Assembly (NCBI GenBank): GCA_016215335.1
Contig: JACRKE010000015.1
Span: 1-41,070 of the forward strand
DNA from: Candidatus Vogelbacteria bacterium
GTDB taxonomy: Bacteria; Patescibacteriota; Minisyncoccia; Phycocordibacterales; JACRKE01
Length of the DNA stretch: 41,070 bases
Reading direction: 5' to 3'
How positions within the stretch are numbered: position 1 is the first letter of the stretch; each line of letters opens with the position of its first letter. A program made the translations under genes and the position numbers. Below the pieces are notes generated by a model. That model saw only the letters and a list, made by a program, of their open reading frames with translations. It did no database searches and had not been told where the DNA came from. Shown here in pieces: positions 1 through 41,070 of this stretch.

Positions 1-134
1 ATTTGTGTTAGTGTAAACCGATTCTCGTTTCTTTCGTGTGTTGTGTGTGATGTGACGATTCAAAAACTCAGACGGCTGAGAGATTTTAGTGATGGCCGCA
101 AAACCGACGGAAAATTAGTTTCGTAATTCACAGC
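1..134. repeat. Left arm of a perfect terminal inverted repeat (partner 40932-41065)
   Basis: Bases 1-134 are the exact reverse complement of 40932-41065, compared base by base. The repeat runs off the left window edge, so its true length is at least 134 bp. It contains the TG-rich tract gtgtgttgtgtgtgatgtg and the small hairpin ctcagacggctgag. Confidence 0.95.
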
Positions 135-956: not shown

Positions 957-1004
957 TTACAATCAACAACTTATCTACGATCGTAGATAAGTTGTTGATT
1001 GTAA
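957..1004. promoter_or_regulatory. 48-bp perfect palindrome between the regulator gene and proS (terminator and/or operator)
   Basis: ttacaatcaacaacttatctacga|tcgtagataagttgttgattgtaa is symmetric about 980/981. It is related to the site at 311-337. Confidence 0.6.
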
Positions 1005-8210: not shown

Positions 8211-8244
8211 GTTTTAGATAGTGTGAAATGTAACGAAATAAATT

Positions 8245-8274
8245 AGCGGCCGCGGGGTAATCCCCGCGGCCGCT
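8245..8274 (-). terminator. GC-rich perfect hairpin terminating the GC-rich ORF 8292-8876
   Basis: agcggccgcgggg-taat-ccccgcggccgct, a 13-bp stem, followed on the minus strand by aatttatttcg. Confidence 0.7.
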
Positions 8275-8291
8275 TCAATACCTAGTAGTCG

Positions 8292-8876
8292 CTACCCGTT
8301 ACCGCAACCTTTCTCGGAGTTCTGTCGTCGCTTCCTTCTGATTGCAAGAGCGAGAGCTGCGCGGAGGTCATACTGCGAAGTGATGTTCAGGCAGTCGAGA
8401 ATTGTTCCCGGATCCGCGCGCAGACTATTCGCAATTTCCTGCGGCTTGACTGCAATTGCCGCCTTGAGTGCATTACGCTCCTCGACAAGTGCGTCAATAG
8501 TTAACATCATGTTCGCAAGATCGAGCTCCTTTGCAGATGCAAGTCTCACCTTGTCCATGAAAATTTCCATGGCGTCGAATAGCGAGCTCGGTTTATCCTC
8601 GCTTGAGACACTCGATTGATACTGGACTACTGCGGCTCGAAGCATCTCCATGATCTTTCCGACTGCCTCGATATTGCCTTCAGAAGGCGATCCTGAGGCC
8701 TTCTCGGCAATCATACGCGCCCCTTTCGTGAGTGTGGTCAGGAGCGCGAACTCTGCACTTCTGAGCTGTCTAATGGGTGGTGCGACCCTGCCGTTCTTGT
8801 TAGCCTCATTCACTTCAGGACCTCCTTGGTCATTAGAATCCCAGGTACTCGGTAGTTTTAACTTCTGCATGTACAA
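8292..8876 (-). CDS. GC-rich hypothetical helical protein (island 1); likely real start GTG 8813 behind AAGGAGG
   Basis: 194-aa ORF. Composition switches from AT-rich to GC-rich near 8830. AAGGAGG (8821-8827) lies 7 nt before the GTG at 8811-8813. The C-terminus is RRKRRQNSEKGCGNG*. I recognise no family. Confidence 0.6.
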   Translation of the reverse strand: MYMQKLKLPSTWDSNDQGGPEVNEANKNGRVAPPIRQLRSAEFALLTTLTKGARMIAEKASGSPSEGNIEAVGKIMEMLRAAVVQYQSSVSSEDKPSSLFDAMEIFMDKVRLASAKELDLANMMLTIDALVEERNALKAAIAVKPQEIANSLRADPGTILDCLNITSQYDLRAALALAIRRKRRQNSEKGCGNG

Positions 8877-14070: not shown

Positions 14071-14142
14071 GGCCTTATCGTCTAATGGTTAGGACATCAC
14101 CCTCTCACGGTGGGAATCGGGGTTCGAATCCCCGTAAGGTCA
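14071..14142 (+). tRNA. tRNA-Glu (anticodon CUC), no encoded CCA
   Basis: A manual cloverleaf fold works. Acceptor stem GGCCTTA/TAAGGTC, D arm GTCT..GGAC, anticodon stem TCACC/GGTGG with loop cTCTCAc, 4-nt variable loop, T arm CGGGG-TTCGAAT-CCCCG. It closely resembles bacterial tRNA-Glu. Confidence 0.85.
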
Positions 14143-14156
14143 CAAAGCCGTCAAAC

Positions 14157-21948: not shown

Positions 21949-21970
21949 ATTAACGTACATAATTAAGAAC

Positions 21971-22000
21971 GGCCGGCTCCTGCGAGGGGGAGCCGGCCGG
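21971..22000 (-). terminator. GC-rich hairpin terminating the island-2 gene
   Basis: ggccggctcc-tgcgaggg-ggagccggcc, 15 nt past the TAA stop of ORF 22015-22623. Confidence 0.65.
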
Positions 22001-22014
22001 TTGCCGAGTGAACG

Positions 22015-22623
22015 TTACTTTAGAAGACCTTTCTTGGGGCCCATGCCGGGGCAGACCCGAGCTACAGGCTCCGCAGCGAGCCACTCGTTGCCTGCAGAAT
22101 CGAGCACGTGAATGAGGTCAATCACGTAGCCTGCACAAGACTTGAACCCTTCGGTCATGACCTTGACTGCCTCTGTGATCTGGCCACCGCGCCAGAAGAG
22201 GTTCGAAAGGAGAAGTGGCATGTTGGGCTCGTGCCCCACCACGATCTCGGGCTTCCGACTTGGAAGAGGCTCCTCCATGATGTCGGAGAGAGCCAGATCC
22301 ATCTCGGCCACGTACTTCTGACAGAGCTTGGCGTCGTGCTTCGTGTAGTCGAGAGGAACGCCCCTCGAGAACATGTCCCACATGCCGTCCATCTTGTCGC
22401 GATCGAGGCCGAAGGTGGGAAGATAGAATACCGGCAGGGCGATATTCGGCATTCTGCTAGGATTCGAAAGGGGCTCGTATGTAGCCACTCTCATTCCTGC
22501 TTCGAAAGTACGTTGGGCGTGCGAGCTAATCAGACGTCCAAAGTTGGGAAAGCCAAGCTCTTCGGCCAGAAGCTCACATTCGATCACGCCTTGAGTCGAC
22601 AGTACGCGTTTCAGGTCATCCAT
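22015..22623 (-). CDS. GC-rich histidine-phosphatase superfamily (SixA/PGAM-like) protein; reading frame continues upstream through TGA 22633-22635 to ATG 22716
   Basis: LSTQGVIECELLAEEL, ISSHAQRT and EIVVGHEPNM resemble SixA/His_Phos_1 blocks. The catalytic RHA motif (LWIRHAEAEP) lies in the same frame just upstream of an in-frame TGA. Confidence 0.6.
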   Translation of the reverse strand: MDDLKRVLSTQGVIECELLAEELGFPNFGRLISSHAQRTFEAGMRVATYEPLSNPSRMPNIALPVFYLPTFGLDRDKMDGMWDMFSRGVPLDYTKHDAKLCQKYVAEMDLALSDIMEEPLPSRKPEIVVGHEPNMPLLLSNLFWRGGQITEAVKVMTEGFKSCAGYVIDLIHVLDSAGNEWLAAEPVARVCPGMGPKKGLLK

Positions 22624-22805
22624 GCCCTCCTTTCACGGCTCGGCCTCCGCATGCCGTATCCAGAGTTGCCGGCGCTTCTTCCACCTGAAGCGAAAGACCC
22701 GCATGTCTCTTTTCATTCTAGGATCCTTTCAGCCTTGGTCACTGTCCTACAGTAAAGTTAAGGTCACTGAAAACCAAATTTTATATTAACATAATATATG
22801 TGTGC

Positions 22806-33289: not shown

Positions 33290-33365
33290 GCGACCTAGAA
33301 AACAAGGAGTGTAATCACGACTGTGTTTTCGGAAGTGCCCTTGTGGTGCGACCTAGAAAACAAGG
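33290..33365. repeat. 58-bp unit plus an 18-bp partial tandem duplication in the mraY leader
   Basis: gcgacctagaaaacaagg occurs at 33290-33307 and again at 33348-33365. The two copies bracket copy 1 of the 46-bp repeat (33304-33349). Confidence 0.9.
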
Positions 33366-33439
33366 TGAGAAGCGAGCAGTGCGCAGCTTCGTAAGACCTT
33401 TTGAGCTCGTATACGAGCCAAAAGGTGTACAGCTCCTGT

Positions 33440-33485
33440 AAGGAGTGTAATCACGACTGTGTTTTCGGAAGTGCCCTTGTGGTGC
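33440..33485. repeat. Second identical copy of the 46-bp repeat
   Basis: aaggagtgtaatcacgactgtgttttcggaagtgcccttgtggtgc is identical to 33304-33349. The two copies are separated by a strong hairpin, ccttttgagctcgta/tacgagccaaaagg, at about 33397-33425. Confidence 0.9.
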
Positions 33486-33489
33486 AGCC

Positions 33490-34431
33490 TCAGTCATTCA
33501 GTATGTTTGATGCAAAGTAATCTGACGTTGCATTTACTAGTTTTTGTATGTCATTGAATCTACCTGATTCCGTCGACCCCATTACAACTGCCACCATGGG
33601 ATGATTGATCCCTGCGTCGAACACAATAGCTAAATTTCCACCAGCCAGATCTGTCAAACCGGTTTTAGACACTAATAAAAGTGGAATTTTTTTCGCTACT
33701 CTGTTTGTGTTCATGACTTGTATGACCTTACCCTCAATGCTACTAAATTTAGCTTTTGACCTTTGAGTTACAATAAATTCCTCATTGTACGAATTTGCTG
33801 CATACCAGATCATCTTTGCAACATCTTCTGATGATCCTTCAGCTCCAGGGATACTCTCGGAAACATCCAGTCCGGTAGGATTTCTGAAATGTAAGGTTTT
33901 TAGGTTAAGTTCCTTTGCCTTAGCGTTCATAATATCAACAAAGTTATTTTTGTTTTTGTTTAGGTTATTGTCTTCTTCACCTAGTGGCATTCTCGCTATG
34001 GCGGCTGCCGCGGAGTTTGAGGATGACATTAGCATCCGCTCTATAAAGGAGCTCAGTTTCCATGTTGATTTGCTACCATTCTCTGTAAACTTTATTACGT
34101 TGTCCGTTTCATGATTCTCCATGGCGACCACGGCTGTCATTATTTTCGCAAGAGATGCGAGTGGCATTATTTTGTCTGATGATTTACTGAATATGATTTT
34201 TCCGCTTTCTGTATCGTATACTACGGCAACCTCAGCCTCTATTTTTGGCATATGTGCAATCTTTTTCTTTTCCACTTTGGGTAACGCGAAAAAATTATTT
34301 GGATTTTGTTCGAAATAACCTTCAATAGTCCCAGACAGCATGAGAAAAAGTGCTATCAAAACTGCAGATGATATGAGTGGTGCAATTGAATTTACTCCGC
34401 TTTTGCTATTCATTTTTACCGGTTGTTCCAT
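33490..34431 (-). CDS. D-alanyl-D-alanine carboxypeptidase (S11 family, low-MW PBP)
   Basis: 313 aa with a signal anchor, SxxK (SLAKIMT), SxN (SSN) and KTG (SKTGLTD). TGA stop. Confidence 0.85.
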   Translation of the reverse strand: MEQPVKMNSKSGVNSIAPLISSAVLIALFLMLSGTIEGYFEQNPNNFFALPKVEKKKIAHMPKIEAEVAVVYDTESGKIIFSKSSDKIMPLASLAKIMTAVVAMENHETDNVIKFTENGSKSTWKLSSFIERMLMSSSNSAAAAIARMPLGEEDNNLNKNKNNFVDIMNAKAKELNLKTLHFRNPTGLDVSESIPGAEGSSEDVAKMIWYAANSYNEEFIVTQRSKAKFSSIEGKVIQVMNTNRVAKKIPLLLVSKTGLTDLAGGNLAIVFDAGINHPMVAVVMGSTESGRFNDIQKLVNATSDYFASNILND

Positions 34432-34960
34432 CTGTATAATCTTTTATCACTTTCGAAAAGTGCTCCTTGTCTGGAAGCTCGTCGAGGGTTTTGATTCCGA
34501 GAAACGCCATGAGTTCGAGAGTGGGCTTGTATAGATAATTTTTTGTACTGTTTTCGGCCATTTTTCTTTCCACAAGGCCTCTCACCATGAGACTCCTGAG
34601 TATGTAGGTTGAGTTCACACCTCTTATTTTGTCTATTACTGACCTAGATGTTGGTCCTTCATAAAGTATGAGTGCGAGAGTTTCGAGCGCCGCGTTTCCG
34701 AGTTCAGCATCATCTTCGTTTTTGGTAAGATCCGCTACAAACTCGCTTACACTTTCTGATGTAGTCATTACTACTTTTTCGTTATTCACAATGAGGGCCA
34801 TGCCGGCGTTAGTATTTTTATATCGCTCGCCGAGGTCTTCTATGGAGTGTACTATCTGTTCTTCCGTGGCACCAATTTGTTTAGACAAATACTTGAAGCT
34901 GATTGGCTCACCCTTAACAATCAAAAGCGCTTCAATTTTTGCAGAAATAATCTTGTCCAT
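34406..34960 (-). CDS. scpB: Segregation and condensation protein B
   Basis: 184 aa with tandem winged-helix domains (EALLIVKGEPISFKYLSK...). It lies downstream of scpA. Confidence 0.88.
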   Translation of the reverse strand: MDKIISAKIEALLIVKGEPISFKYLSKQIGATEEQIVHSIEDLGERYKNTNAGMALIVNNEKVVMTTSESVSEFVADLTKNEDDAELGNAALETLALILYEGPTSRSVIDKIRGVNSTYILRSLMVRGLVERKMAENSTKNYLYKPTLELMAFLGIKTLDELPDKEHFSKVIKDYTDGTTGKNE

Positions 34961-35724
34961 TAGGCGTATCGGGGAACGTTAAACTTCTGTGATTCTATCT
35001 CTATTTCTTCAAAGTGGCTCGATTGCTTTAATGCCACTGTTCCCCTCTTTGCAAGCTCTAACAGAGCAAGGAAACTTACTATCACATGAACTTTTTCACT
35101 TTTTTCCGCTGTTCCTTTTTTTCCATGCATTTTGCTGAAGGTGGTACTCACTGCTCTTTCAAGTCTATCTACGATACTTGCCATCATTTGCTCTACGCTT
35201 ACAACTTTTTCAATTGCTTTTGATGGAATTTTATCCAGCCTTGGAACATTTAAAAGTAAATCTCTCATTGCGGCTACTATTCCACCCCACGATACCTCGT
35301 TCGTGCCATCCTCTCTATTCTTAGGAATACGGAAGGATATTTTTCTTTTGATAGGGTTTGCGAACAAGACGCGATTGTAATCGAATTGATTATGAATAAT
35401 CAGAGCCTTGTCCTTCATCTGCTTATAAATATTCAATCTTGCCTCCAAATCCTTTATATTTATTTCTTCCTCATTAGAAATTGGCAGATTTGGCAAAAGA
35501 GACCTTGATTTAATTAGCATCAAAGTGGCTGCAACGACTAGAAATTGAGCAACTTCATCCAATGGAACTGCTCGAAGAGTCTCTAAATGAGCGATGAAGC
35601 TATCTGTTATCTCTGCGAGTGACACATCGCTCACCGACATTTTTCTTTGTTGGACAAGCTCTAAAATTAGAACAAGCGGGCCATTTGAATTTCCTACATT
35701 AACCTTGAATTGGTCTTGCGGCAT
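34960..35724 (-). CDS. scpA: Segregation and condensation protein A (kleisin)
   Basis: 254 aa with GPLVLILELVQQRKMSVSDVSLAEITDSF and C-terminal FLALLELAKRG. Confidence 0.88.
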   Translation of the reverse strand: MPQDQFKVNVGNSNGPLVLILELVQQRKMSVSDVSLAEITDSFIAHLETLRAVPLDEVAQFLVVAATLMLIKSRSLLPNLPISNEEEINIKDLEARLNIYKQMKDKALIIHNQFDYNRVLFANPIKRKISFRIPKNREDGTNEVSWGGIVAAMRDLLLNVPRLDKIPSKAIEKVVSVEQMMASIVDRLERAVSTTFSKMHGKKGTAEKSEKVHVIVSFLALLELAKRGTVALKQSSHFEEIEIESQKFNVPRYA

Positions 35725-35747
35725 ATAGGTAGTATACCCCCACTACA

Positions 35748-35785
35748 ATGAAAATCGGCTGTGGATTACCACAGTCGATTTTCAT
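35748..35785. other. 17-bp-stem hairpin between aspS and scpA (terminator or attenuator)
   Basis: atgaaaatcggctgtgg-atta-ccacagtcgattttcat with one G.T pair. The T-tract lies on the plus-strand side only. Confidence 0.4.
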
Positions 35786-35798
35786 GAATTCACTTTTT

Positions 35799-37223
35799 TT
35801 ATTTGTTTTTTTCTATTGTGCGTATACCAAGTTCAGTAAGTTGTTCGTCGGTAGCAACACTAGGTGCTTCCATTATCGAAGCTTTTCCGTTTCCTGTCAT
35901 TGGGAATGCTATCACCTCACGCACTGATTGTTCTCCAAGTATTACCATGAGCAACCTGTCTATACCCGGTGCGATTCCGCCATGAGGTGGAACTCCATAG
36001 GTGAAAGCCTCGAGCATATGAGCAAACTGTTTCTTTTGCTCATCATTAAAACCGATGAGATCAAAAACTTTTTCCTGGATTTTAGATTGATGGATTCTTA
36101 CGCTACCTCCGCCGACTTCGTAACCGTTAAGCACAAGATCATGCTGAAGGCCTCTCACCTTGGTAGGATCAGTTTCGAGTAAACCTATGTCGTCTGGATG
36201 TGGAGCGGTAAACATATGGTGAGATGGAGCAAATTTGGATTTACCTGATCCGTGGAAGAAATCCTCTTCCGACTGTTCTGTGAATAATGGAAAGTCAACA
36301 GTCCATGCGAACGCTAGCTCATCTTGATCTTCTTTATTTTTGCGCAAGTCGGGTTTGTCCGTGCCGAATTTTTCCTTGGCCTCCTTGTGTGTTAGTCGCG
36401 GCCAGGGCTTTTGCATTATATGCTTCTCTGGAAAGATTGATTCCACCATTTCAGTAAACATCTTTTCCGTCAACTGCATTATCTCCTCTTGTGATGCGAA
36501 TGACATCTCCATGTCGAGTTGCGTAAACTCTCCGTACGCTCTGTCTGCTCTCGGGTCTTCATCTCTAAAGCATCTGGCTATTTGGAAGTATCTTTCAAAA
36601 CCGGCAACCATCAGCAGTTGCTTGTACTGTTGTGGACTCTGTGGAAGCGCATAAAAGTTGCCCTTGGATAATCTCGCCGGTACAAGAAAATCTCGCGCAC
36701 CCTCCGGCGTAGTCTTTGTGAGTATCGGAGTTTCGATTTCTACAAACCTTTCTTTGTTTATGAGATAGTCCCTGAAAAATTTGATTACTTGGCTTCGCAC
36801 TCTCATATTTCTTGTCATGCGCTCCCGCCTAAGGTCTAGATAACGGTATTTTAGCCGCACCTCTTCGCTCATCTGAAGCCCATCTGAATTTACATCGATC
36901 GGTGTTGTCTCCGCTTTGTTTATAACAGTCGCTTTGGTTATTTCAATCTCAAGACTGCCATTTTTTTCATTAGCATTCACAAGTTTTTCTGGTCGCTTAT
37001 TTACATTTCCTACTATTTCCACAACCCATTCACTTCTAAATGTCTCTACTGCCACCTTTGCTTCTTCGTGACTTGGAAGCAATACAGCCTGGACTTTACC
37101 GGACATGTCTCTTATGTCGAGGAATATAAGTTTGCCATGATCACGTCTCACATCCACCCAGCCTCTTATATGTACCTCTTTTCCAGTGTGCAGTGTTAGA
37201 TCTCCAATGAATACTCTCTCCAT
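35799..37223 (-). CDS. aspS: Aspartyl-tRNA synthetase, short bacterial-type form without the GAD insertion
   Basis: 474 aa with an OB fold, FYALPQSPQQYKQLLM and FQIARCFRDEDPRADR. Confidence 0.93.
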   Translation of the reverse strand: MERVFIGDLTLHTGKEVHIRGWVDVRRDHGKLIFLDIRDMSGKVQAVLLPSHEEAKVAVETFRSEWVVEIVGNVNKRPEKLVNANEKNGSLEIEITKATVINKAETTPIDVNSDGLQMSEEVRLKYRYLDLRRERMTRNMRVRSQVIKFFRDYLINKERFVEIETPILTKTTPEGARDFLVPARLSKGNFYALPQSPQQYKQLLMVAGFERYFQIARCFRDEDPRADRAYGEFTQLDMEMSFASQEEIMQLTEKMFTEMVESIFPEKHIMQKPWPRLTHKEAKEKFGTDKPDLRKNKEDQDELAFAWTVDFPLFTEQSEEDFFHGSGKSKFAPSHHMFTAPHPDDIGLLETDPTKVRGLQHDLVLNGYEVGGGSVRIHQSKIQEKVFDLIGFNDEQKKQFAHMLEAFTYGVPPHGGIAPGIDRLLMVILGEQSVREVIAFPMTGNGKASIMEAPSVATDEQLTELGIRTIEKNK

Positions 37224-37233
37224 ATAGGTTGAT

Positions 37234-38250
37234 TTAGAAATAATTTATCTGCATTGCCGTCTTCACGTCCCTAAGCGTCTTTGCTGATATATTGCAAGCC
37301 CTTTCAGTTCCTTCTTTTAGTATTTTAAGTATTTGATCTGAATTCTGCGCAAGTTCTTCGCGGTTTCTTCGAATGGGACCTATCTCATTTTCCAACACTT
37401 CAATAAGTCTCTTTTTAATGACAACATCTCCAACTCCTCCGGCCTTGTATTTTTCTTTTAGTTCCCCTAGTCCTTTCGGGTCATTGTCAAATACGTCTAA
37501 ATATTCGAAAACAACGTTGCCTTCAATGTGCCCCGGGTCTGTCGCGTGAATATGTGCTGGATCAGTATACATATTCATTACTTTTTCTGCTAAAACCTTT
37601 GATGAATCCGCGAGAAAAATAGCATTCCCAGTACTTTTGCCCATTTTGGACTTACCATCAGTTCCAGATAGTCTCGCTGCAATCCTCGGGACAATTGCCT
37701 TGACTCTCGGGAATGTTGCGGTGTAGAGTGCATTAAATTTGTCTACGATTTCATTCGTTTGTTCAATCATTGGCAGTTGATCCTCGCCAGCCGGCACGAC
37801 ACACGCTTTTACACACAATATGTCCGCTGCTTGACTTACGGGGTAACACATAAAACCTGCAGGAATATTCTGACCATAGCCTTTTTGATTAACTTCATCC
37901 TTAACCGTGGGGTTTCGAATGAGGCGCGATACTGTAACAAGATTTAGAAAATATATGGTGAGATCGGCAATCTCCGGCACCATTGACTGAATAAAAAAAG
38001 TGTTCTTGTGAGGATCTACTCCGCACGCGATATTATCTATTGTGGTCTCTAAAATATTAGCTCTAATTTTTGCCGGATTGTCGGCGTTGTCGGTGAGCGC
38101 TTGAACATCCGCGACAAGTATGAATTGATCATAATCATCCTGCATTTTTACGCGATTTTTAAAAGAGCCAACATAATGCCCCAAATGCATTTTGCCGGTC
38201 GGCCGGTCTCCCGTGAGAGCAATTTTTCTTTTTATAGTTCCATTTTCCAT
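37234..38250 (-). CDS. trpS: Tryptophanyl-tRNA synthetase
   Basis: 338 aa with GDRPTGKMHLGHYVG (HIGH region) and KMGKS (KMSKS motif). Confidence 0.93.
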   Translation of the reverse strand: MENGTIKRKIALTGDRPTGKMHLGHYVGSFKNRVKMQDDYDQFILVADVQALTDNADNPAKIRANILETTIDNIACGVDPHKNTFFIQSMVPEIADLTIYFLNLVTVSRLIRNPTVKDEVNQKGYGQNIPAGFMCYPVSQAADILCVKACVVPAGEDQLPMIEQTNEIVDKFNALYTATFPRVKAIVPRIAARLSGTDGKSKMGKSTGNAIFLADSSKVLAEKVMNMYTDPAHIHATDPGHIEGNVVFEYLDVFDNDPKGLGELKEKYKAGGVGDVVIKKRLIEVLENEIGPIRRNREELAQNSDQILKILKEGTERACNISAKTLRDVKTAMQINYF

Positions 38251-38300
38251 ATAATGTCATGATAGCAGGTTGCTGGAAGACTGCCAATCAGTCTAACAAA

Positions 38301-38342
38301 TAAAGTAAGGTTCGACCTTGCGTAAGGTCGAACCTTACTTTA
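38301..38342. repeat. REP-like hairpin, left flank of the Y1 transposase gene
   Basis: taaagtaaggttcgacctt-gcgt-aaggtcgaaccttacttta. The stem core gtaaggttcgacctt is identical to that of the hairpin at 39046-39085. Confidence 0.9.
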
Positions 38343-38370
38343 CGACTTGATTTGCTGTATACTTAAAAAT

Positions 38371-39034
38371 ATGAACAGAGTCCCCATTGAATTAGACACG
38401 TTCCACCATATTTACAACCGAGGAACCGATAAAAGACTTATTTTCATGGACGATAAAGACCGTGAGCTTTTTTCTCAAATATCTGCATATTTTGAATGAT
38501 GCAGATATTGAAAGTCCCAGTAGAAATTTATCACTGCATCTACGGCCTCAAACTGTCAGTAAAAGACTTACGAATATTTGCGCGTTTTGCATGATGCCAA
38601 ACCACTTTCACCTTTTATTGTACGAGTGTACACCCGGCGGGATTAGCAAGTTGCTACAACGGCTGGGAACTGCATTTACAATGTATTTCAACGAAAAATA
38701 TGAAAGAAGCGGGGCTTTATTTCAGGGAGGTTTCAAAAGCCGTCTTATCGAAGACGAGGTTTACCTGATGCAAGTAATCGACTACATTCATCTAAATCCA
38801 ATTCAACACAAGGAAATGGATGGTTCTAAGAAAGGTTTATTTAAAAGCGATCTACAATTTCTTGATGACTATCCGTGGTCAAGTTATAAAGATTATTGCG
38901 GAGAAGAGACCTACTCAAATATTCTGCAACGAGATGTGCTGAACGAATATTTGGAAATGCCAAAAGATTACAAAGCATGGCTTCAAGGGCAACACGACTT
39001 CGAGGACATTCGCTCATTAGCAATTGATATGTAA
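38371..39034 (+). pseudogene. IS200/IS605-family Y1 (HUH) transposase, RAYT-like, interrupted by a frameshift in a T6 run (38468-38473)
   Basis: Frame 1 gives MNRVPIELDTFHHIYNRGTDKRLIFMDDKDRE (HUH motif) and stops at 38497. Frame 2 (ORF 38462-39034) continues with FLKYLHILND...MMPNHFHLLL...FQGGFKS...YIHLNP (catalytic Tyr). Confidence 0.85.
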
Positions 39035-39045
39035 CTCATGTCCGA

Positions 39046-39085
39046 CCAGTAAGGTTCGACCTTACGAAAGGTCGAACCTTACTGG
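39046..39085. repeat. REP-like hairpin, right flank of the Y1 transposase gene
   Basis: ccagtaaggttcgacctt-acga-aaggtcgaaccttactgg. The loop is nearly the reverse complement of the left-flank loop, so the two copies are inverted. Confidence 0.9.
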
Positions 39086-39095
39086 AATCACTATA

Positions 39096-39133
39096 AAACA
39101 AAAAACGCACCAACTTTCGCTGATGTGTTTTTT
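39096..39133. terminator. Bidirectional terminator separating the transposase (+) from the GC-rich operon (-)
   Basis: Stem caccaac/gctgatgtg with G.U pairs. An A-tract lies upstream and ttttttg downstream on the plus strand. The minus strand reads cacatcagcgaaagttggtgcgtttttt. Confidence 0.6.
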
Positions 39134-39137
39134 GTGT

Positions 39138-39257
39138 GAGTCGATTGAAGGGTTACCTCCTTTCGCGTATCGACTCGCCACGCGCCACCGTTCGGTGGAC
39201 TTTGTTGTGTAGTCGTTCCAGATAGGCGACCTGTGTAGGGCTTCCACGTCGCCTATC
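39138..39257 (-). other. Structured non-coding tail of the GC-rich operon (three hairpins), candidate ncRNA or 3'UTR element
   Basis: Hairpins gagtcgat...atcgactc (39138-39176), ccacc-gttc-ggtgg (39185-39198) and gataggcgac-17 nt-gtcgcctatc (39221-39257). The last is bracketed by the 8-bp direct repeat tagtcgtt (39210-39217 and 39262-39269). Confidence 0.45.
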
Positions 39258-39260
39258 GAC

Positions 39261-39701
39261 CTAGTCGTTGCCACACAGGTCGGCGGAAACTTTTCGCCGC
39301 CTCTCGGCCTCCTTTCTCGCGTCAACGAGCTTCGTGAAGCGTTGGAGTATGTGTCTCCGCACGCTTACCAGTATCGCCTCTCGACCCGCCTCGGGTAGTG
39401 CCGCGAGGCCGATGCCCGAGAGAAGGATTCTCCTAACCTCGAGCAAAACTGCCTCTGTTCTACTTGGCTGAACCCTAGCGATAGGGTCACGCACGCAAAT
39501 GATGTTTTCGACCATCGCAATTGTGAGGTGCTTAACGTCATCGTGCAGTAACGCCTCGACTGCCTCATTCGAGACTTGCGTTAGCTGACCCATGGCTTCA
39601 TCCGCCGCAATCAGGGCTTTCATACTCCTGCGCATGTCAATCTCGCGCAGGTCATTGAAGCTGGCAAACGCCACCAAAAAGTTTTCCGCTAGTCTATCCA
39701 T
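39261..39701 (-). CDS. GC-rich hypothetical helical protein with a polybasic-CGND C-terminus (island 3, gene 4)
   Basis: 146 aa. AGGAGG lies 7 nt upstream of the ATG. TAG stop. The tail is RKEAERRRKVSADLCGND*. Confidence 0.65.
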   Translation of the reverse strand: MDRLAENFLVAFASFNDLREIDMRRSMKALIAADEAMGQLTQVSNEAVEALLHDDVKHLTIAMVENIICVRDPIARVQPSRTEAVLLEVRRILLSGIGLAALPEAGREAILVSVRRHILQRFTKLVDARKEAERRRKVSADLCGND

Positions 39702-39714
39702 CTCGTGACCTCCT

Positions 39715-40074
39715 TTACTTGGTTGTCGCTTTGGCTGGAGCGATTGCTTCGAGTAGATGCTCCACGAACTTCGGGTCGCCGCTGGTGGTGACGCTCAATC
39801 GTCCTTGCGCAACATCTGAAATATTGTAGATGTTGGCGAAGTGGACGGGCGTCAACCCGATAACGCTTCTGCCCTTGTTGCGGTTGGCCATCAGGTGTGG
39901 CTCATCATTCCAGATTACGAGCGCTCCAAGCTCGATCTGCTCAAGCGTCTTCGCGTTCGCCGTCACTCGTTCCGATGATAGCCGTTCGCGTTCGTTGGGA
40001 CGCGAATCTATGGAGGTTATGAAATACATCCAGCCTGCCATCATGGCCGCCAGCGCAACGAAGCTGGCAATCAT
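39715..40074 (-). CDS. GC-rich hypothetical TM-anchored protein (island 3, gene 3); SD-preceded ATG at 40101 is in frame but separated by TGA 40084-40086
   Basis: 119 aa with an N-terminal TM (IASFVALAAMMAGWMYFI). There is no SD before the ATG at 40074. AAAGGAG-5 nt-ATG at 40099-40101 gives MRNIM-TGA-TCFMIAS... in the same frame. Confidence 0.6.
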   Translation of the reverse strand: MIASFVALAAMMAGWMYFITSIDSRPNERERLSSERVTANAKTLEQIELGALVIWNDEPHLMANRNKGRSVIGLTPVHFANIYNISDVAQGRLSVTTSGDPKFVEHLLEAIAPAKATTK

Positions 40075-40124
40075 GAAGCATGTTCACATGATGTTACGCA
40101 TTTGCACTCCTTTATCTATGTTGG

Positions 40125-40358
40125 TCACCTGTTCATGGTACGGTACGCAGCGCTGAGGAGGCTCATAAATCTTCCCGTAGCTACGCACGGAAGTGCGAGG
40201 ACTTGCCGCTTGCCCCCGAGTTCGGGGGCGTCCATTGATAGACAAACTACGTCCGCCTGATTCTCATCGAGTTTGATCTCAAGCTCGAATACGGCAAGAA
40301 CGTAGCCTGTCGGCTCGCCGCGCTCGTCGAGCACGGCGATGGTTTCCTTGAACTTCAT
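40125..40358 (-). CDS. GC-rich hypothetical small soluble protein (island 3, gene 2)
   Basis: 77 aa. AAGGAGG lies 5 nt upstream of the ATG. It ends at TGA 40125-40127, with an in-frame TAG three codons later at 40116-40118. Confidence 0.6.
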   Translation of the reverse strand: MKFKETIAVLDERGEPTGYVLAVFELEIKLDENQADVVCLSMDAPELGGKRQVLALPCVATGRFMSLLSAAYRTMNR

Positions 40359-40382
40359 CCAGACCTCCTTGATTACCGTTTG

Positions 40383-40916
40383 CTATTCATGGTCGTTGTA
40401 ATCATTTTCGGCATCAAGATACGCAAGGGCCTCTGTTGCGAACCGCCTACACTCTAGGCGGAGCATGAGACCGAGCACGATCGCTGGCAGGCCAATCGTG
40501 CGCGCGAGGAAAATCAGCGCGAGACCGTCATCGGCCGCCACTGCCTTCGGCACTGCAAGTATATTTCCAAGCAGTACCACAACCCACGAAAGCATCGGCT
40601 CGGTGTTCTCCTCTGCTTGGAAAGCGAGGTGAATTATGAGTCGAACGTAGCCAAGAGTCATAGCGATCTGACACACGACGTATGTCGAGACCGCAAGAGC
40701 AGTTACGCGCCACCAGATAAAAGTTCCGCCTACCAGCGCGTAGCAAGCCCAGTCGAGCCAGTCGTGTTCGAGCTTGGCTCGCCGATGATTGCGTATCACC
40801 GCGGCACACATTACAAGAGAGAACGGCGCGGCAAGGTTGCCGCTCAAGTTCGCAGTGACACTCGCGCCCGGGTTGTGTCGCCAGTAGGCAAAAAAACTGA
40901 TCCAGAGCGCGAGCAC
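40383..40916 (-). CDS. GC-rich hypothetical polytopic membrane protein, about 6 TM (island 3, gene 1), possibly 5'-truncated at the inverted repeat
   Basis: 177 aa from a GTG start with no SD. The open hydrophobic frame continues upstream (KISFVIHSFWIIAV) across the repeat boundary at 40932. Confidence 0.55.
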   Translation of the reverse strand: MLALWISFFAYWRHNPGASVTANLSGNLAAPFSLVMCAAVIRNHRRAKLEHDWLDWACYALVGGTFIWWRVTALAVSTYVVCQIAMTLGYVRLIIHLAFQAEENTEPMLSWVVVLLGNILAVPKAVAADDGLALIFLARTIGLPAIVLGLMLRLECRRFATEALAYLDAENDYNDHE

Positions 40917-40931
40917 AGCGATGATCCAGAA

Positions 40932-41065
40932 GCTGTGAATTACGAAACTAATTTTCCGTCGGTTTTGCGGCCATCACTAAAATCTCTCAGCCGTCTGAGT
41001 TTTTGAATCGTCACATCACACACAACACACGAAAGAAACGAGAATCGGTTTACACTAACACAAAT
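40932..41065. repeat. Right arm of the perfect terminal inverted repeat (partner 1-134)
   Basis: It is the exact reverse complement of 1-134. Five further bases (41066-41070) have no counterpart only because the window starts there. Confidence 0.95.
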
Positions 41066-41070
41066 GAAAG

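What the first reader, a model, noticed from the sequence alone, without database searches (positions are those of the whole stretch)
39096..40931. GC-rich four-gene operon of unrecognisable proteins between a RAYT element and the terminal inverted repeat
Composition jumps abruptly from the AT-rich host to clearly GC-rich DNA at about 39100, judged by eye. Four tightly packed minus-strand ORFs follow. They are a roughly 6-TM membrane protein, a 77-aa soluble protein, a TM-anchored protein of about 120 aa, and a 146-aa helical protein with a polybasic-CGND tail. Three of the four carry canonical AAGGAGG sites 5-7 nt upstream, whereas neighbouring host genes are essentially SD-less. The operon ends in about 130 nt of hairpin-rich non-coding sequence and a bidirectional terminator. 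I cannot assign any of the four to a known family. Together with islands 1 and 2, this looks like a distinct foreign gene set rather than host core genome. It is the best candidate here for an undescribed module.
Basis: partly seen in the sequence, partly recalled or inferred. Interest (0 to 1): 0.8.

Follow-up and report, generated by a model that had tools for sequence, protein, structure and literature searches.

The report
Truncated foreign gene fragment in a CPR genome
The GC-rich stretch at the end of this contig is real foreign DNA in a small-genome (Patescibacteria-like) bacterium, but it looks like a cut-off fragment, with one truncated transporter-like gene and three genes with no detectable relatives, rather than a conserved new system.

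Summary
GC content jumps from about 0.40 to 0.51-0.61 at 39100-39150. Four tightly packed minus-strand ORFs follow, with donor-type AAGGAGG ribosome-binding sites that host genes lack, then a hairpin-rich 3' region and a terminator. "Foreign DNA" is supported: GC3 is 0.63-0.67 against 0.38-0.41, and codon usage does not correlate with the host. Two similar islets lie inside the contig, and independent Logan contigs span the left junction and run 28 nt past the right one.

"Undescribed four-gene module" is not supported. Gene 1 belongs to an unnamed ~200-aa bacterial family with a 7-TM PQ-loop/SWEET/KDEL-receptor fold. The copy here is cut exactly at the junction with the 134-nt terminal inverted repeat. 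It has lost TM1, its start codon, its ribosome-binding site and its promoter. In five other genomic contexts this family is a stand-alone gene with no relatives of the other three ORFs nearby.

The 77-, 119- and 146-aa ORFs found no relative in any search run. The 119-aa ORF is separated from its ribosome-binding site by an in-frame TGA. Most likely this is a recently acquired, partly disrupted fragment of a longer donor operon. Interest is modest.

The parts
39137..40931 (-). GC-rich foreign segment (island 3), about 1.8 kb at 0.53-0.55 GC
   Evidence: Composition profiles. GC3 is 0.63-0.67 against a host 0.38-0.41. RSCU does not correlate with the host. Logan contig L001 equals window 33456-40959 with 1 mismatch.
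40383..40916 (-). 5'-truncated gene of an unnamed 7-TM PQ-loop/SWEET-fold family. The ORF is 177 aa from a GTG with no ribosome-binding site. The frame stays open upstream to 40967 (40958 is where Logan contig L001 and the alignment query end), across the junction at 40931/40932. TM2-TM7 are present; TM1 and the conserved I-x-P-x-L-A-T motif are missing.
   Evidence: Exhaustive phmmer found 54 proteins at E <= 1e-3, counting the query itself. Query residue ~3 aligns to homologue residue ~41-44. In alignment A1 the invariant W is the second codon after the junction. 38 of 43 homologues have 23-58 residues before that W. AF2 of member P0066: pLDDT 93.4, 7 helices. Foldseek top 17 hits are KDEL receptor, cystinosin and SWEET.
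40125..40358 (-). 77-aa ORF (pI 5.0, mostly soluble) with AAGGAGG at 40364-40370, 5 nt before the ATG. No detectable relatives.
   Evidence: No hit in Pfam, PHROGs, NCBIfam or PADLOC. Singleton cluster. No hit in PDB, IMG/VR or PLSDB.
40084..40112 (-). AAGGAG (40107-40112) plus a 5-codon mini-ORF ATG CGT AAC ATC ATG TGA (40084-40101). Its TGA is in frame with the 119-aa ORF's ATG and 9 nt upstream of it. This is either a nonsense mutation in the original codon 6 or a coupling mini-ORF.
   Evidence: Read directly from the sequence.
39715..40074 (-). 119-aa ORF with an N-terminal TM anchor (residues 1-19 or more) and a soluble domain of about 95 aa. It has no ribosome-binding site of its own and no detectable relatives.
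   Evidence: No family hits. No relatives in PLSDB, phages, PDB, IMG/VR or JGI metagenomes.
39261..39701 (-). 146-aa all-helical ORF ending RRRKVSADLCGND, with AAGGAGG at 39709-39715, 7 nt before the ATG. No detectable relatives.
   Evidence: No homologue among 5.8 billion proteins. AF2 from the single sequence is all-helical but low-confidence (pLDDT 47.5). No PDB, IMG/VR or PLSDB hit.
39136..39260 (-). Structured 3' non-coding region with three hairpins: 39221-39257, 39185-39198 and 39138-39176. The loop of the last one carries an orphan AAGGAGG(T) at 39156-39162 with no start codon after it. This may be the ribosome-binding site of a fifth gene cut off by the left junction.
   Evidence: Fold z-score of -5.2; motif coordinates.
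39098..39135 (.). A-run/stem/T-run bidirectional terminator of host-like AT-rich composition. It lies between the REP hairpin and the island.
40932..41065 (.). Right arm of the 134-nt perfect terminal inverted repeat (X'). Its composition is host-like (about 0.42-0.44 GC). It abuts the island inside the membrane gene. It contains a small hairpin followed by a T-run in both directions.
   Evidence: Not unusually structured (z = +1.0 and +1.2). No Rfam match at E <= 1. A 33-mer from it is absent from JGI metagenomes.
1..134 (.). Left arm of the same inverted repeat (X), followed by host DNA: a PaaX/Cas2-like gene at 354-911 and proS at 1050-2297.
38301..39085 (+). RAYT-type Y1 transposase gene flanked by two 36-nt REP hairpins (38304-38339 and 39048-39083). 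The gene is split over two frames at a T6 run near 38470-38480.
   Evidence: Y1_Tnp hit at E = 7e-7 on profile positions 38-119 only. Repeats D4, I2, I14 and I20. ORFs 38347-38499 and 38462-39034 overlap in different frames.

Best explanation
The segment at about 39137-40931 is a recently acquired fragment of DNA from a higher-GC donor that uses Shine-Dalgarno sites. It sits in the chromosome of a Patescibacteria (CPR)-type bacterium whose own genes lack such sites.

In the donor it was an internal piece of a longer operon. That operon began with a 7-TM PQ-loop/SWEET-fold membrane protein, probably a small-solute carrier. Three small lineage-specific genes followed: a 77-aa cytosolic protein, a 119-aa single-pass membrane protein and a 146-aa helical protein.

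In this genome the right-hand breakpoint (40931/40932) falls inside the first gene. It removes the promoter, ribosome-binding site, start codon, TM1 and the TM1-TM2 loop. The DNA beyond the breakpoint is a host-composition sequence of at least 134 nt that also occurs, inverted, at the other end of the contig. It is most simply one copy of a repeated element or a rearrangement boundary. If an element inserted there, the rest of the gene may lie on another contig.

The left-hand breakpoint falls just after an orphan ribosome-binding site. The 119-aa gene is separated from its own site by an in-frame TGA.

The cluster is therefore best read as a partly disrupted horizontal-transfer remnant and not a self-contained functional module.

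Shown: the foreign composition, the family and fold of gene 1, its truncation at the junction, and the lack of conservation of the set. Inferred: recent transfer, transporter function in the donor, loss of function here, and the nature of the repeat.
For: **Foreign origin**
- GC steps from 0.40 to 0.53-0.60.
- GC3 is 0.63-0.67 against 0.38-0.41.
- RSCU correlation is r = 0.02 with the host and 0.58 with islands 1 and 2.
- AAGGAGG sites occur on island genes only.

**Really in this genome**
- The Logan assembly of SRR12113407 gives a 7.5-kb contig identical to window 33456-40959 apart from one base. It spans the left junction and runs 28 nt into the repeat.
- Islands 1 and 2 are embedded between host genes in Logan contigs L082 and L096.

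**Gene 1 family and fold**
- About 50 remote homologues of ~200 aa.
- The AF2 model has pLDDT 93.4 and 7 helices.
- The Foldseek top 17 hits are all KDEL receptor, cystinosin or SWEET (probability 0.99-1.00, TM 0.51-0.62).

**Truncation**
- Homologues carry a median of about 35-37 residues before the invariant W. Here that W is the second codon after the junction.
- The repeat-encoded residues do not match the I-x-P-x-L-A-T consensus and are preceded by stop codons.
- No promoter-like site was found in the repeat arm reading into the island.

**Not a conserved set**
- All four proteins are singleton clusters.
- P0001 and P0004 have no homologue in the word-indexed search of 5.8 billion proteins.
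- Family members in five contexts are monocistronic, with no relatives of the 77-, 119- or 146-aa proteins nearby.
Against: - The three downstream ORFs are intact, tightly packed and keep good ribosome-binding sites and a terminator. They could still be expressed and useful.
- The membrane ORF stays open with an in-frame GTG and six TM helices, so a shortened protein could be made.
- The host has no close relatives in the collections (TrpS is at most 66% identical). Absence of the island in sister genomes could therefore not be tested.
"No homologues" is weaker for them.
- Read-level support for the two junctions was not available. Both assemblies come from the same run.
Confidence: 0.6

Rival explanations
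1. It is a functional, lineage-specific four-gene module: a membrane-associated transport, envelope or host-interaction system. It was acquired by transfer and is kept by selection. The shortened 6-TM protein works with the TM-anchored 119-aa protein and the two soluble proteins.
For: - Four same-strand ORFs with short or no gaps, strong ribosome-binding sites and a structured 3' end with a terminator.
- Coding-type GC phase in all four.
- The 146-aa protein shares a polybasic-CGNx C-terminal tail with the island-1 protein. This hints at a common functional signal.
Against: - No conservation of the set or of three of its members anywhere.
- Gene 1 lacks TM1 of a 3+1+3 fold, its start codon and its ribosome-binding site.
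- No promoter was detected upstream.
- An in-frame stop lies between the ribosome-binding site and the 119-aa ORF.
- No PADLOC, Pfam, PHROGs or NCBIfam support.
Confidence: 0.2
2. It is an assembly or library artefact. A fragment from a different, GC-richer organism was joined to the end of a CPR contig, and the perfect terminal inverted repeat is a fold-back chimera.
For: - The segment is at the very end of the contig.
- It is bounded by a 100% inverted copy of the contig's own first 134 nt, a pattern that chimeric fold-backs can give.
- The junction cuts a gene.
- All the proteins are singletons.
Against: - An independent k = 31 assembly (Logan) of the same run reproduces the left junction inside a 7.5-kb contig. 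It also carries the right junction 28 nt into the repeat.
- Two further islets with the same composition, codon usage and AAGGAGG signature lie deep inside the contig, between intact host genes. Logan also reproduces them.
- Inter-genome chimeras are not expected to be bounded by host DNA on both sides three times over.
Confidence: 0.1
3. It is part of a larger island interrupted by a mobile element. The 134-nt (or longer) repeat is the end of a multi-copy insertion sequence that landed in the membrane gene. The promoter and 5' end of that gene, and perhaps more island genes, lie on another contig.
For: - Contigs typically end in repeats.
- The repeat has host composition and a sharp identity boundary at 134/135 and 40931/40932.
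- The Logan contig stops just inside it, as expected at a graph branch.
- The gene is cut cleanly at the boundary.
Against: - No transposase, terminal inverted repeat or target-site duplication can be seen in the 139 nt available.
- The repeat is not unusually structured.
- It has no Rfam match and no copy in the fetched loci or in JGI metagenomes.
- This overlaps with the best explanation in that the gene is disrupted either way.
Confidence: 0.1

Closest known systems
PQ-loop / SWEET / KDEL-receptor / cystinosin superfamily (Pfam MtN3-like clan; 3+1+3 seven-helix fold)
   Same: Full-length members of the family that gene 1 belongs to are about 200 aa. They model confidently as seven TM helices. 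Their best PDB matches are the KDEL receptor, cystinosin and SWEETs. A conserved Pro sits before TM2, and a conserved Y-x-P-T...NTEP...W stretch on TM5 and its loop recalls the PQ-loop hinge. One member hits the clan member LAB_N weakly.
   Different: No member reaches any Pfam model of the clan or any PDB sequence. The PQ dipeptide is replaced by PT. Most bacterial relatives of SWEETs are 3-TM SemiSWEETs, and 6-7-TM bacterial forms are uncommon (PMC5742349). The copy in this window lacks TM1 and so cannot form the first triple-helix bundle.
Small genomic islets and horizontally transferred ORFan genes
   Same: Sharp compositional and codon-usage deviation, donor-type translation signals, placement in intergenic DNA next to a mobile-element gene (RAYT), and no homologues.
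   Different: No integrase, tRNA target or direct repeats were found. One end lies inside a gene. The recipient is an SD-less, reduced CPR genome, which makes the foreign signals unusually conspicuous.
REP/RAYT elements (IS200/IS605-like Y1 transposase flanked by REP hairpins)
   Same: The neighbouring gene has a Y1_Tnp domain and is bracketed by two nearly identical 36-nt palindromic hairpins.
   Different: It is not part of the GC-rich segment, since its composition is host-like. Its reading frame is split. Nothing links it mechanistically to the acquisition of the island.

Membership tests
PQ-loop/SWEET structural superfamily (gene 1) | Seven TM helices in a 3+1+3 arrangement, structurally similar to SWEET, PQ-loop or KDEL-receptor proteins | tested here: met
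   Met for full-length family member P0066: AF2 pLDDT 93.4, pTM 0.87, 7 helices. The Foldseek top 17 PDB hits are all KDEL receptor, cystinosin or SWEET, with probability 0.99-1.00 and TM 0.51-0.62. The window copy aligns to TM2-TM7 only.
PQ-loop/SWEET structural superfamily (gene 1) | Complete first triple-helix bundle (TM1-TM3) in the copy under study | tested here: not met
   The window copy has one island-encoded residue before the invariant W that opens TM2. Homologues have a median of about 35-37 residues there. The upstream frame runs into the repeat and hits stop codons.
Pfam PQ-loop (PF04193) / MtN3_slv (PF03083) | Sequence match above the gathering threshold | tested here: not met
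   No Pfam family at E <= 1 for the window protein. None of 35 family members hits either model at E <= 0.01. One member gives a weak LAB_N hit, E = 0.0086.
Pfam PQ-loop (PF04193) / MtN3_slv (PF03083) | Conserved Pro-Gln dipeptide in TM1 and TM5 | tested here: inconclusive
   The family has a near-invariant Pro before TM2 and a conserved Y-x-P-T on TM5, together with an invariant or near-invariant Gln seven residues upstream. There is no PQ dipeptide.
PQ-loop/SWEET transporters | Solute transport activity | not testable with these tools
   Needs heterologous expression and uptake or efflux assays of a full-length family member.
Horizontally acquired genomic island | Composition and codon usage that deviate from the host | tested here: met
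   GC 0.53-0.55 against 0.38-0.45. GC3 0.63-0.67 against 0.38-0.41. RSCU correlation with the host r = 0.02.
Horizontally acquired genomic island | Integrase or recombinase, tRNA target, or flanking direct repeats | tested here: not met
   The only tRNA is at 14071-14143. No integrase was found among the ORFs. No direct repeats flank the island. Only a split RAYT gene is adjacent.
Horizontally acquired genomic island | Absent from closely related genomes | tested here: inconclusive
   The closest TrpS loci in GTDB species representatives are at most 66% identical. None carries island proteins, but they are too distant for a presence/absence test.
Conserved multi-gene module (operon-level family) | Co-occurrence of the same genes in other genomes | tested here: not met
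   All four are singleton clusters. No homologues were found for P0001 or P0004 in the word-indexed search of 5.8 billion proteins. Five contexts of gene-1 relatives lack the other three. Nothing in IMG/VR, JGI metagenomes, PLSDB or phages.
Known anti-phage defence systems / toxin-antitoxin | Match to a PADLOC or Pfam model of a defence or TA component | tested here: not met
   PADLOC gives only PDC-M10B at E = 0.044 for the membrane protein and nothing for the others. Pfam has no TA family.
REP/RAYT element (neighbour) | Y1 (HUH) transposase domain flanked by REP palindromes | tested here: met
   Y1_Tnp at E = 7e-7. REP hairpins at 38304-38339 and 39048-39083, 94-97% alike. The gene is split across two frames, so its integrity is not met.

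The most novel reading that the evidence does not exclude
The three GC-rich, SD-bearing islets of this contig, including the four-gene cluster, could be a coherent and recently imported gene set. The source might be the organism this epibiotic CPR cell lives on, or one of that organism's mobile elements. Under this reading the set encodes membrane-targeted or secreted interaction proteins. The shared C-terminal signature (polybasic run, Ser, then C-G-N-x at the very end) of the 146-aa protein and the island-1 protein would be a new sorting or lipidation-type signal. The PQ-loop-fold protein would act as the associated membrane component.
Probability: 0.07. Interest if true: 0.65.

Novelty: new member of a known kind. 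Interest (0 to 1): 0.3.

Why it matters
If the reading is right, this is an ordinary outcome: a piece of laterally acquired DNA caught before it has adapted or decayed. It should not be promoted as a new system.

Two by-products have some value:
- It gives a clear, assembly-verified case of foreign genes with strong Shine-Dalgarno sites entering a reduced Patescibacteria genome whose own genes lack such sites. That bears on how, and from whom, these symbionts acquire genes, and on whether such genes can be translated.
- It exposes an unnamed bacterial family of about 200 aa with a full seven-helix PQ-loop/SWEET/KDEL-receptor fold. The family has no Pfam model and occurs as a stand-alone gene, in at least two contexts that look CPR-like. 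Bacteria are mostly known for the three-helix SemiSWEET form (PMC5742349, PMC4309421).

Tried and rejected
**Profile libraries.** Pfam, PHROGs, NCBIfam and PADLOC scans of all four proteins gave nothing below E = 0.03.

**Large protein searches.**
- The word-indexed search of 5.8 billion proteins with the 177- and 146-aa proteins returned only themselves.
- The same search with family alignment A1 returned only 4 proteins, because of the candidate cap.
- I tried to submit the three in-frame ORFs as one translation to the exhaustive search.
- Only one exhaustive job was allowed, and I spent it on the membrane protein.

**Structure.** AlphaFold of the 146-aa protein without an alignment gave pLDDT 47.5. 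It is all-helical but unusable for fold search.

**Smaller collections.**
- PDB sequence searches with the 77-, 119- and 146-aa proteins and with the family profile found nothing significant.
- tblastn and blastn against PLSDB and phage genomes found nothing; the best hit had E = 0.5.
- Pattern scans found no relatives in IMG/VR (77-, 119- and 146-aa proteins) or JGI metagenomes (119-aa protein only).
- Alignment A1 was too divergent for pattern scanning.

**The inverted-repeat sequence.**
- A 33-mer from it has no match in JGI metagenomes.
- It has no copy in the 80 TrpS loci and no Rfam hit at E <= 1.
- Its fold is not unusual.
- Finding the Logan contig that covers the left end failed. The ProS, MreB and PaaX-like products are not on record with those exact sequences. 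The LysS contig starts at the 957-1004 palindrome.

**Ideas considered and dropped.**
- Paralogy between the 146-aa protein and the island-1 protein: only the 13-residue tail aligns (E = 0.084).
- A GC-rich non-coding RNA reading of the islands: the codon-phase GC is coding-like, the ORFs are long, and Rfam is silent.
- Integron cassettes: the 3' hairpins are perfect GC-rich stems followed by T-rich tracts, not attC-like, and there is no integrase.
- A CaaX-type prenylation reading of CGND/CGNG: judged unlikely from general knowledge of CaaX specificity (polar a2, with Asp or Gly at X). Not tested.
- A Pfam scan of a conceptually joined RAYT did not extend the Y1_Tnp match.

**Literature.** A search for the run accession SRR12113407 found nothing.


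Full report
**What the window is.** The window is a complete public contig of 41,070 nt; the island proteins are on record only from a contig of that length. It carries core cellular genes. Those confirmed by Pfam or tRNA scans are proS, mreB, mreC, two PBPs, greA, lysS, mraZ, rsmH, a Mur ligase, tRNA-Glu, scpA/B, asnS or aspS, and trpS. GC is about 0.42. The closest TrpS loci among GTDB species representatives are 55-66% identical. The top hits are Nomurabacteria, Paceibacterota or "Saccharibacteria" MAGs. A PaaX/Cas2-like protein matches a Nomurabacteria contig. The host is therefore a Patescibacteria (CPR)-type bacterium with no close sequenced relative. None of 34 host gene starts has GGAGG in the 25 nt upstream.

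**Checking the observation.** The GC step is real and sharp. Values are 0.32-0.43 up to 39149 and 0.51-0.61 from 39100/39150. They stay at 0.47-0.65 to about 40950 and fall to 0.44 in the last 120 nt. The four minus-strand ORFs are as described:

| ORF | Coordinates | Notes |
|---|---|---|
| 177 aa | 40383-40916 | GTG start, membrane protein |
| 77 aa | 40125-40358 | mostly soluble |
| 119 aa | 39715-40074 | N-terminal TM anchor |
| 146 aa | 39261-39701 | helical, ends RRRKVSADLCGND |

- All four have coding-type GC phase (GC2 lowest, GC3 0.63-0.67), against a host GC3 of 0.38-0.41.
- Hydropathy gives about six TM segments in the first ORF and one N-terminal anchor in the third.
- AAGGAGG sits 5 nt and 7 nt before the ATGs of the 77- and 146-aa ORFs.
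- The third site is AAGGAG at 40107-40112. It precedes a five-codon mini-ORF (MRNIM-TGA, 40084-40101) whose stop is in frame with the 119-aa ATG and 9 nt upstream of it. Either the original codon 6 became a stop and translation restarts, or this is a coupling mini-ORF.
- A fourth AAGGAGG (39156-39162) lies in the loop of a hairpin in the 3' region, with no start codon after it.
- The 3' region (three hairpins plus the terminator at 39098-39135) folds far better than shuffles (z = -5.2).
- All nine AAGGAGG heptamers of the window are on the minus strand. Six lie in the three GC-rich islets.

**Is the segment really in this genome?** An independent k = 31 assembly of run SRR12113407 (Logan) has a 7,504-nt contig that equals window 33456-40959 apart from one base. 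It runs from host genes (D-Ala-D-Ala carboxypeptidase, scpB, scpA, asnS or aspS, trpS) through the RAYT element and the whole island, and continues 28 nt into the repeat arm. The left junction is thus reproduced inside a contig. The right junction is reproduced up to a graph branch.

Two more islets share the same signature:
- Island 1 (about 8240-8835): ORF 8292-8870, or 8292-8813 from a GTG with AAGGAGG at 8821.
- Island 2 (about 21955-22750): ORF 22015-22623, with AAGGAGG at 22626.

Both lie between intact host genes, and Logan contigs L082 and L096 reproduce them. Codon usage of island 3 correlates with islands 1 and 2 (r = 0.58) and not with the host (r = 0.02). A chimeric join is therefore unlikely. 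It is not excluded at read level, because both assemblies use the same reads.

**Gene 1.**
- Profile libraries were silent, and the word-indexed search found only the query itself.
- The exhaustive HMMER search of 1.84 billion representatives found 54 proteins at E <= 1e-3 (counting the query itself), the best at about 1e-9. They are 20-34% identical and mostly 190-220 aa long.
- Query residue ~3 always aligns to homologue residue ~41-44.
- Alignment A1 is gapless in this region. It places the family's invariant Trp on the TGG that is the second codon after the 40931/40932 junction.
- 38 of 43 homologues carry 23-58 residues (median about 35-37) before that Trp. The window has one.
- The frame does continue into the repeat (RKISFVIHS). 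Those residues do not fit the conserved I-x-P-x-L-A-T, and two stop codons lie just upstream.
- With alignment A2, AlphaFold models family member P0066 at pLDDT 93.4 and pTM 0.87, with seven helices.
- Foldseek against the PDB returns KDEL receptor, cystinosin and SWEET structures as its first 17 hits (probability 0.99-1.00, TM 0.51-0.62). Nothing comparable follows.
- No member reaches a Pfam model of that clan, apart from one weak LAB_N hit. No PDB sequence matches the profile.

Gene 1 is therefore a 5'-truncated copy of an unnamed bacterial family with a seven-helix PQ-loop/SWEET fold. It lacks TM1 and the TM1-TM2 loop, and with them its start codon, ribosome-binding site and promoter. No promoter-like site was found in the repeat arm. 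The arm does contain a small hairpin with a T-run facing the island.

**Is the four-gene set conserved?** It is not, as far as this could be tested.
- All four proteins are singletons at 90% identity among about 15 billion sequences.
- The 146-aa protein has no homologue in the word-indexed search.
- The 77-, 119- and 146-aa proteins have no relatives in PDB sequences, PLSDB or IMG/VR; the 119-aa protein also has none in phage genomes or JGI metagenomes.
- The island DNA has no blastn match in PLSDB or phages.
- Five family members of gene 1 were examined in their genomic contexts: P0066, P0050, P0015, P0016 and P0020. The loci have GC of 0.40-0.52, and at least two contexts look CPR-like. In the four informative contexts (P0016 sits alone on an 809-nt contig) the gene stands alone, with its downstream neighbour on the opposite strand. 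tblastn finds no relative of the other three ORFs nearby.

**The terminal inverted repeat.** Positions 1-134 and 40932-41065 are perfectly complementary, and the right end continues 5 nt further. The repeat has host-like composition. It is not unusually structured and has no Rfam match. It is absent from the fetched loci and from JGI metagenomes.

The same end of the repeat abuts host DNA at 135 and island DNA at 40931. The simplest reading is two inverted copies of a repeated sequence at which the assembler stopped. Whether this is the tip of an insertion element (in which case the rest of gene 1 lies elsewhere) or a rearrangement scar cannot be decided without reads.

**Interpretation.** The most likely account (about 0.6) is a recently acquired fragment of a longer donor operon that has not yet drifted towards host composition and is cut at both ends. 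One cut is inside the PQ-loop-fold gene. The other is just after an orphan ribosome-binding site. There is also an in-frame stop ahead of the 119-aa gene. I infer that gene 1 was a small-solute carrier in the donor, from its fold alone. The roles of the other three genes are unknown.

The rivals are:
- a functional lineage-specific module (about 0.2);
- an assembly artefact (about 0.1);
- a larger island interrupted by a repeat-bearing element (about 0.1), which overlaps with the main account.

**Comparison with what is known.** Gene 1 works like, and is structurally a member of, the PQ-loop/SWEET/KDEL-receptor superfamily. It fails sequence membership of the Pfam families, and the local copy fails the complete-fold test. 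Bacterial relatives of SWEETs are mostly three-helix SemiSWEETs that dimerise, and six- or seven-helix bacterial forms are uncommon (PMC5742349; PQ-loop relationship in PMC4309421). The island as a whole is an ordinary small horizontally acquired islet with ORFan content. It lacks an integrase, a tRNA target and direct repeats.

**Verdict.** Interest is about 0.3, and the novelty class is a new member of a known kind.

Noticed in passing
window 8240-8835 (ORF 8292-8870, or 8292-8813 from GTG): Island 1 is a single GC-rich (0.49-0.58) minus-strand gene between lysS and mraZ, antisense to both. AAGGAGG at 8821-8827 lies 7 nt before an in-frame GTG. A perfect 13-bp GC hairpin (8244-8275) follows the stop. 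The protein is a singleton with no Pfam hit. It ends KRRQNSEKGCGNG, the same polybasic-Ser-CGNx tail as the 146-aa island-3 protein (6 of 13 identical, at the extreme C-terminus of both, with dissimilar DNA).
   Followed up: partly
window 21955-22750 (ORF 22015-22623): Island 2 is a GC-rich (0.51-0.60) minus-strand 202-aa ORF with AAGGAGG 4 nt before the ATG, a GC-rich terminator hairpin (about 21969-22001) and a GC-rich leader of about 125 nt holding a 27-codon basic mini-ORF. It lies between a 350-aa protein that looks like a PPDK N-terminal domain (my reading of the motif, not tested) and a 347-aa protein with a PEP-utilizers domain. It has no Pfam or PLSDB hit. The NCBI record calls a 145-aa version and Logan a 202-aa version.
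   Followed up: partly
window 38347-39034: The RAYT (Y1 transposase) gene is split over two overlapping frames at a T6 run near 38470-38480. The N-terminal piece contains HHIYNRG, and the C-terminal piece carries the HUH-like NHFHLL. The split is identical in both assemblies, so it is a frameshift in the reads (a pseudogene or slippage), not an assembly error.
   Followed up: partly
window 1-134 and 40932-41065 (plus 41066-41070): A perfect 134-nt terminal inverted repeat of host-like composition. The right end has 5 extra nt. The same end of the repeat abuts two different sequences, which implies at least two inverted copies or a structural polymorphism. The 40.8-kb segment between the copies could be invertible.
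   Followed up: partly
window 957-1004: A perfect 48-nt palindrome (24 + 24, no spacer) lies upstream of proS. The Logan contig L082 breaks exactly there.
   Followed up: no
window 33290-33490: A 51-nt direct repeat (33304-33354 and 33440-33490, 96% identical) and an 18-nt exact repeat (33290-33307 and 33348-33365) lie in the intergenic region between two minus-strand genes.
   Followed up: no
loci L083-L097 (family of P0015-P0067): An unnamed family of about 200-aa bacterial proteins with a confident seven-helix PQ-loop/SWEET/KDEL-receptor fold. It has no Pfam model and about 50 clusters at 50% identity. Conserved positions are P31, W36, N61, W107, Q122, Y129, E144, W149 and R177 (P0066 numbering). 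It always occurs as a stand-alone gene, in at least two contexts that look CPR-like (sortase, DUF5671, MreB, aminoacyl-tRNA synthetases).
   Followed up: partly
loci L002-L081: The window's TrpS is 55-60% identical to TrpS of Babeliales (TM6), Chlamydiales and other symbiont MAGs. That is nearly as close as to other Patescibacteria (58-66%). This may reflect a shared TrpS type among host-associated lineages.
   Followed up: no
window 34562: The single difference between the NCBI contig (T) and the Logan contig (C) over 7.5 kb is probably a population SNP.
   Followed up: no
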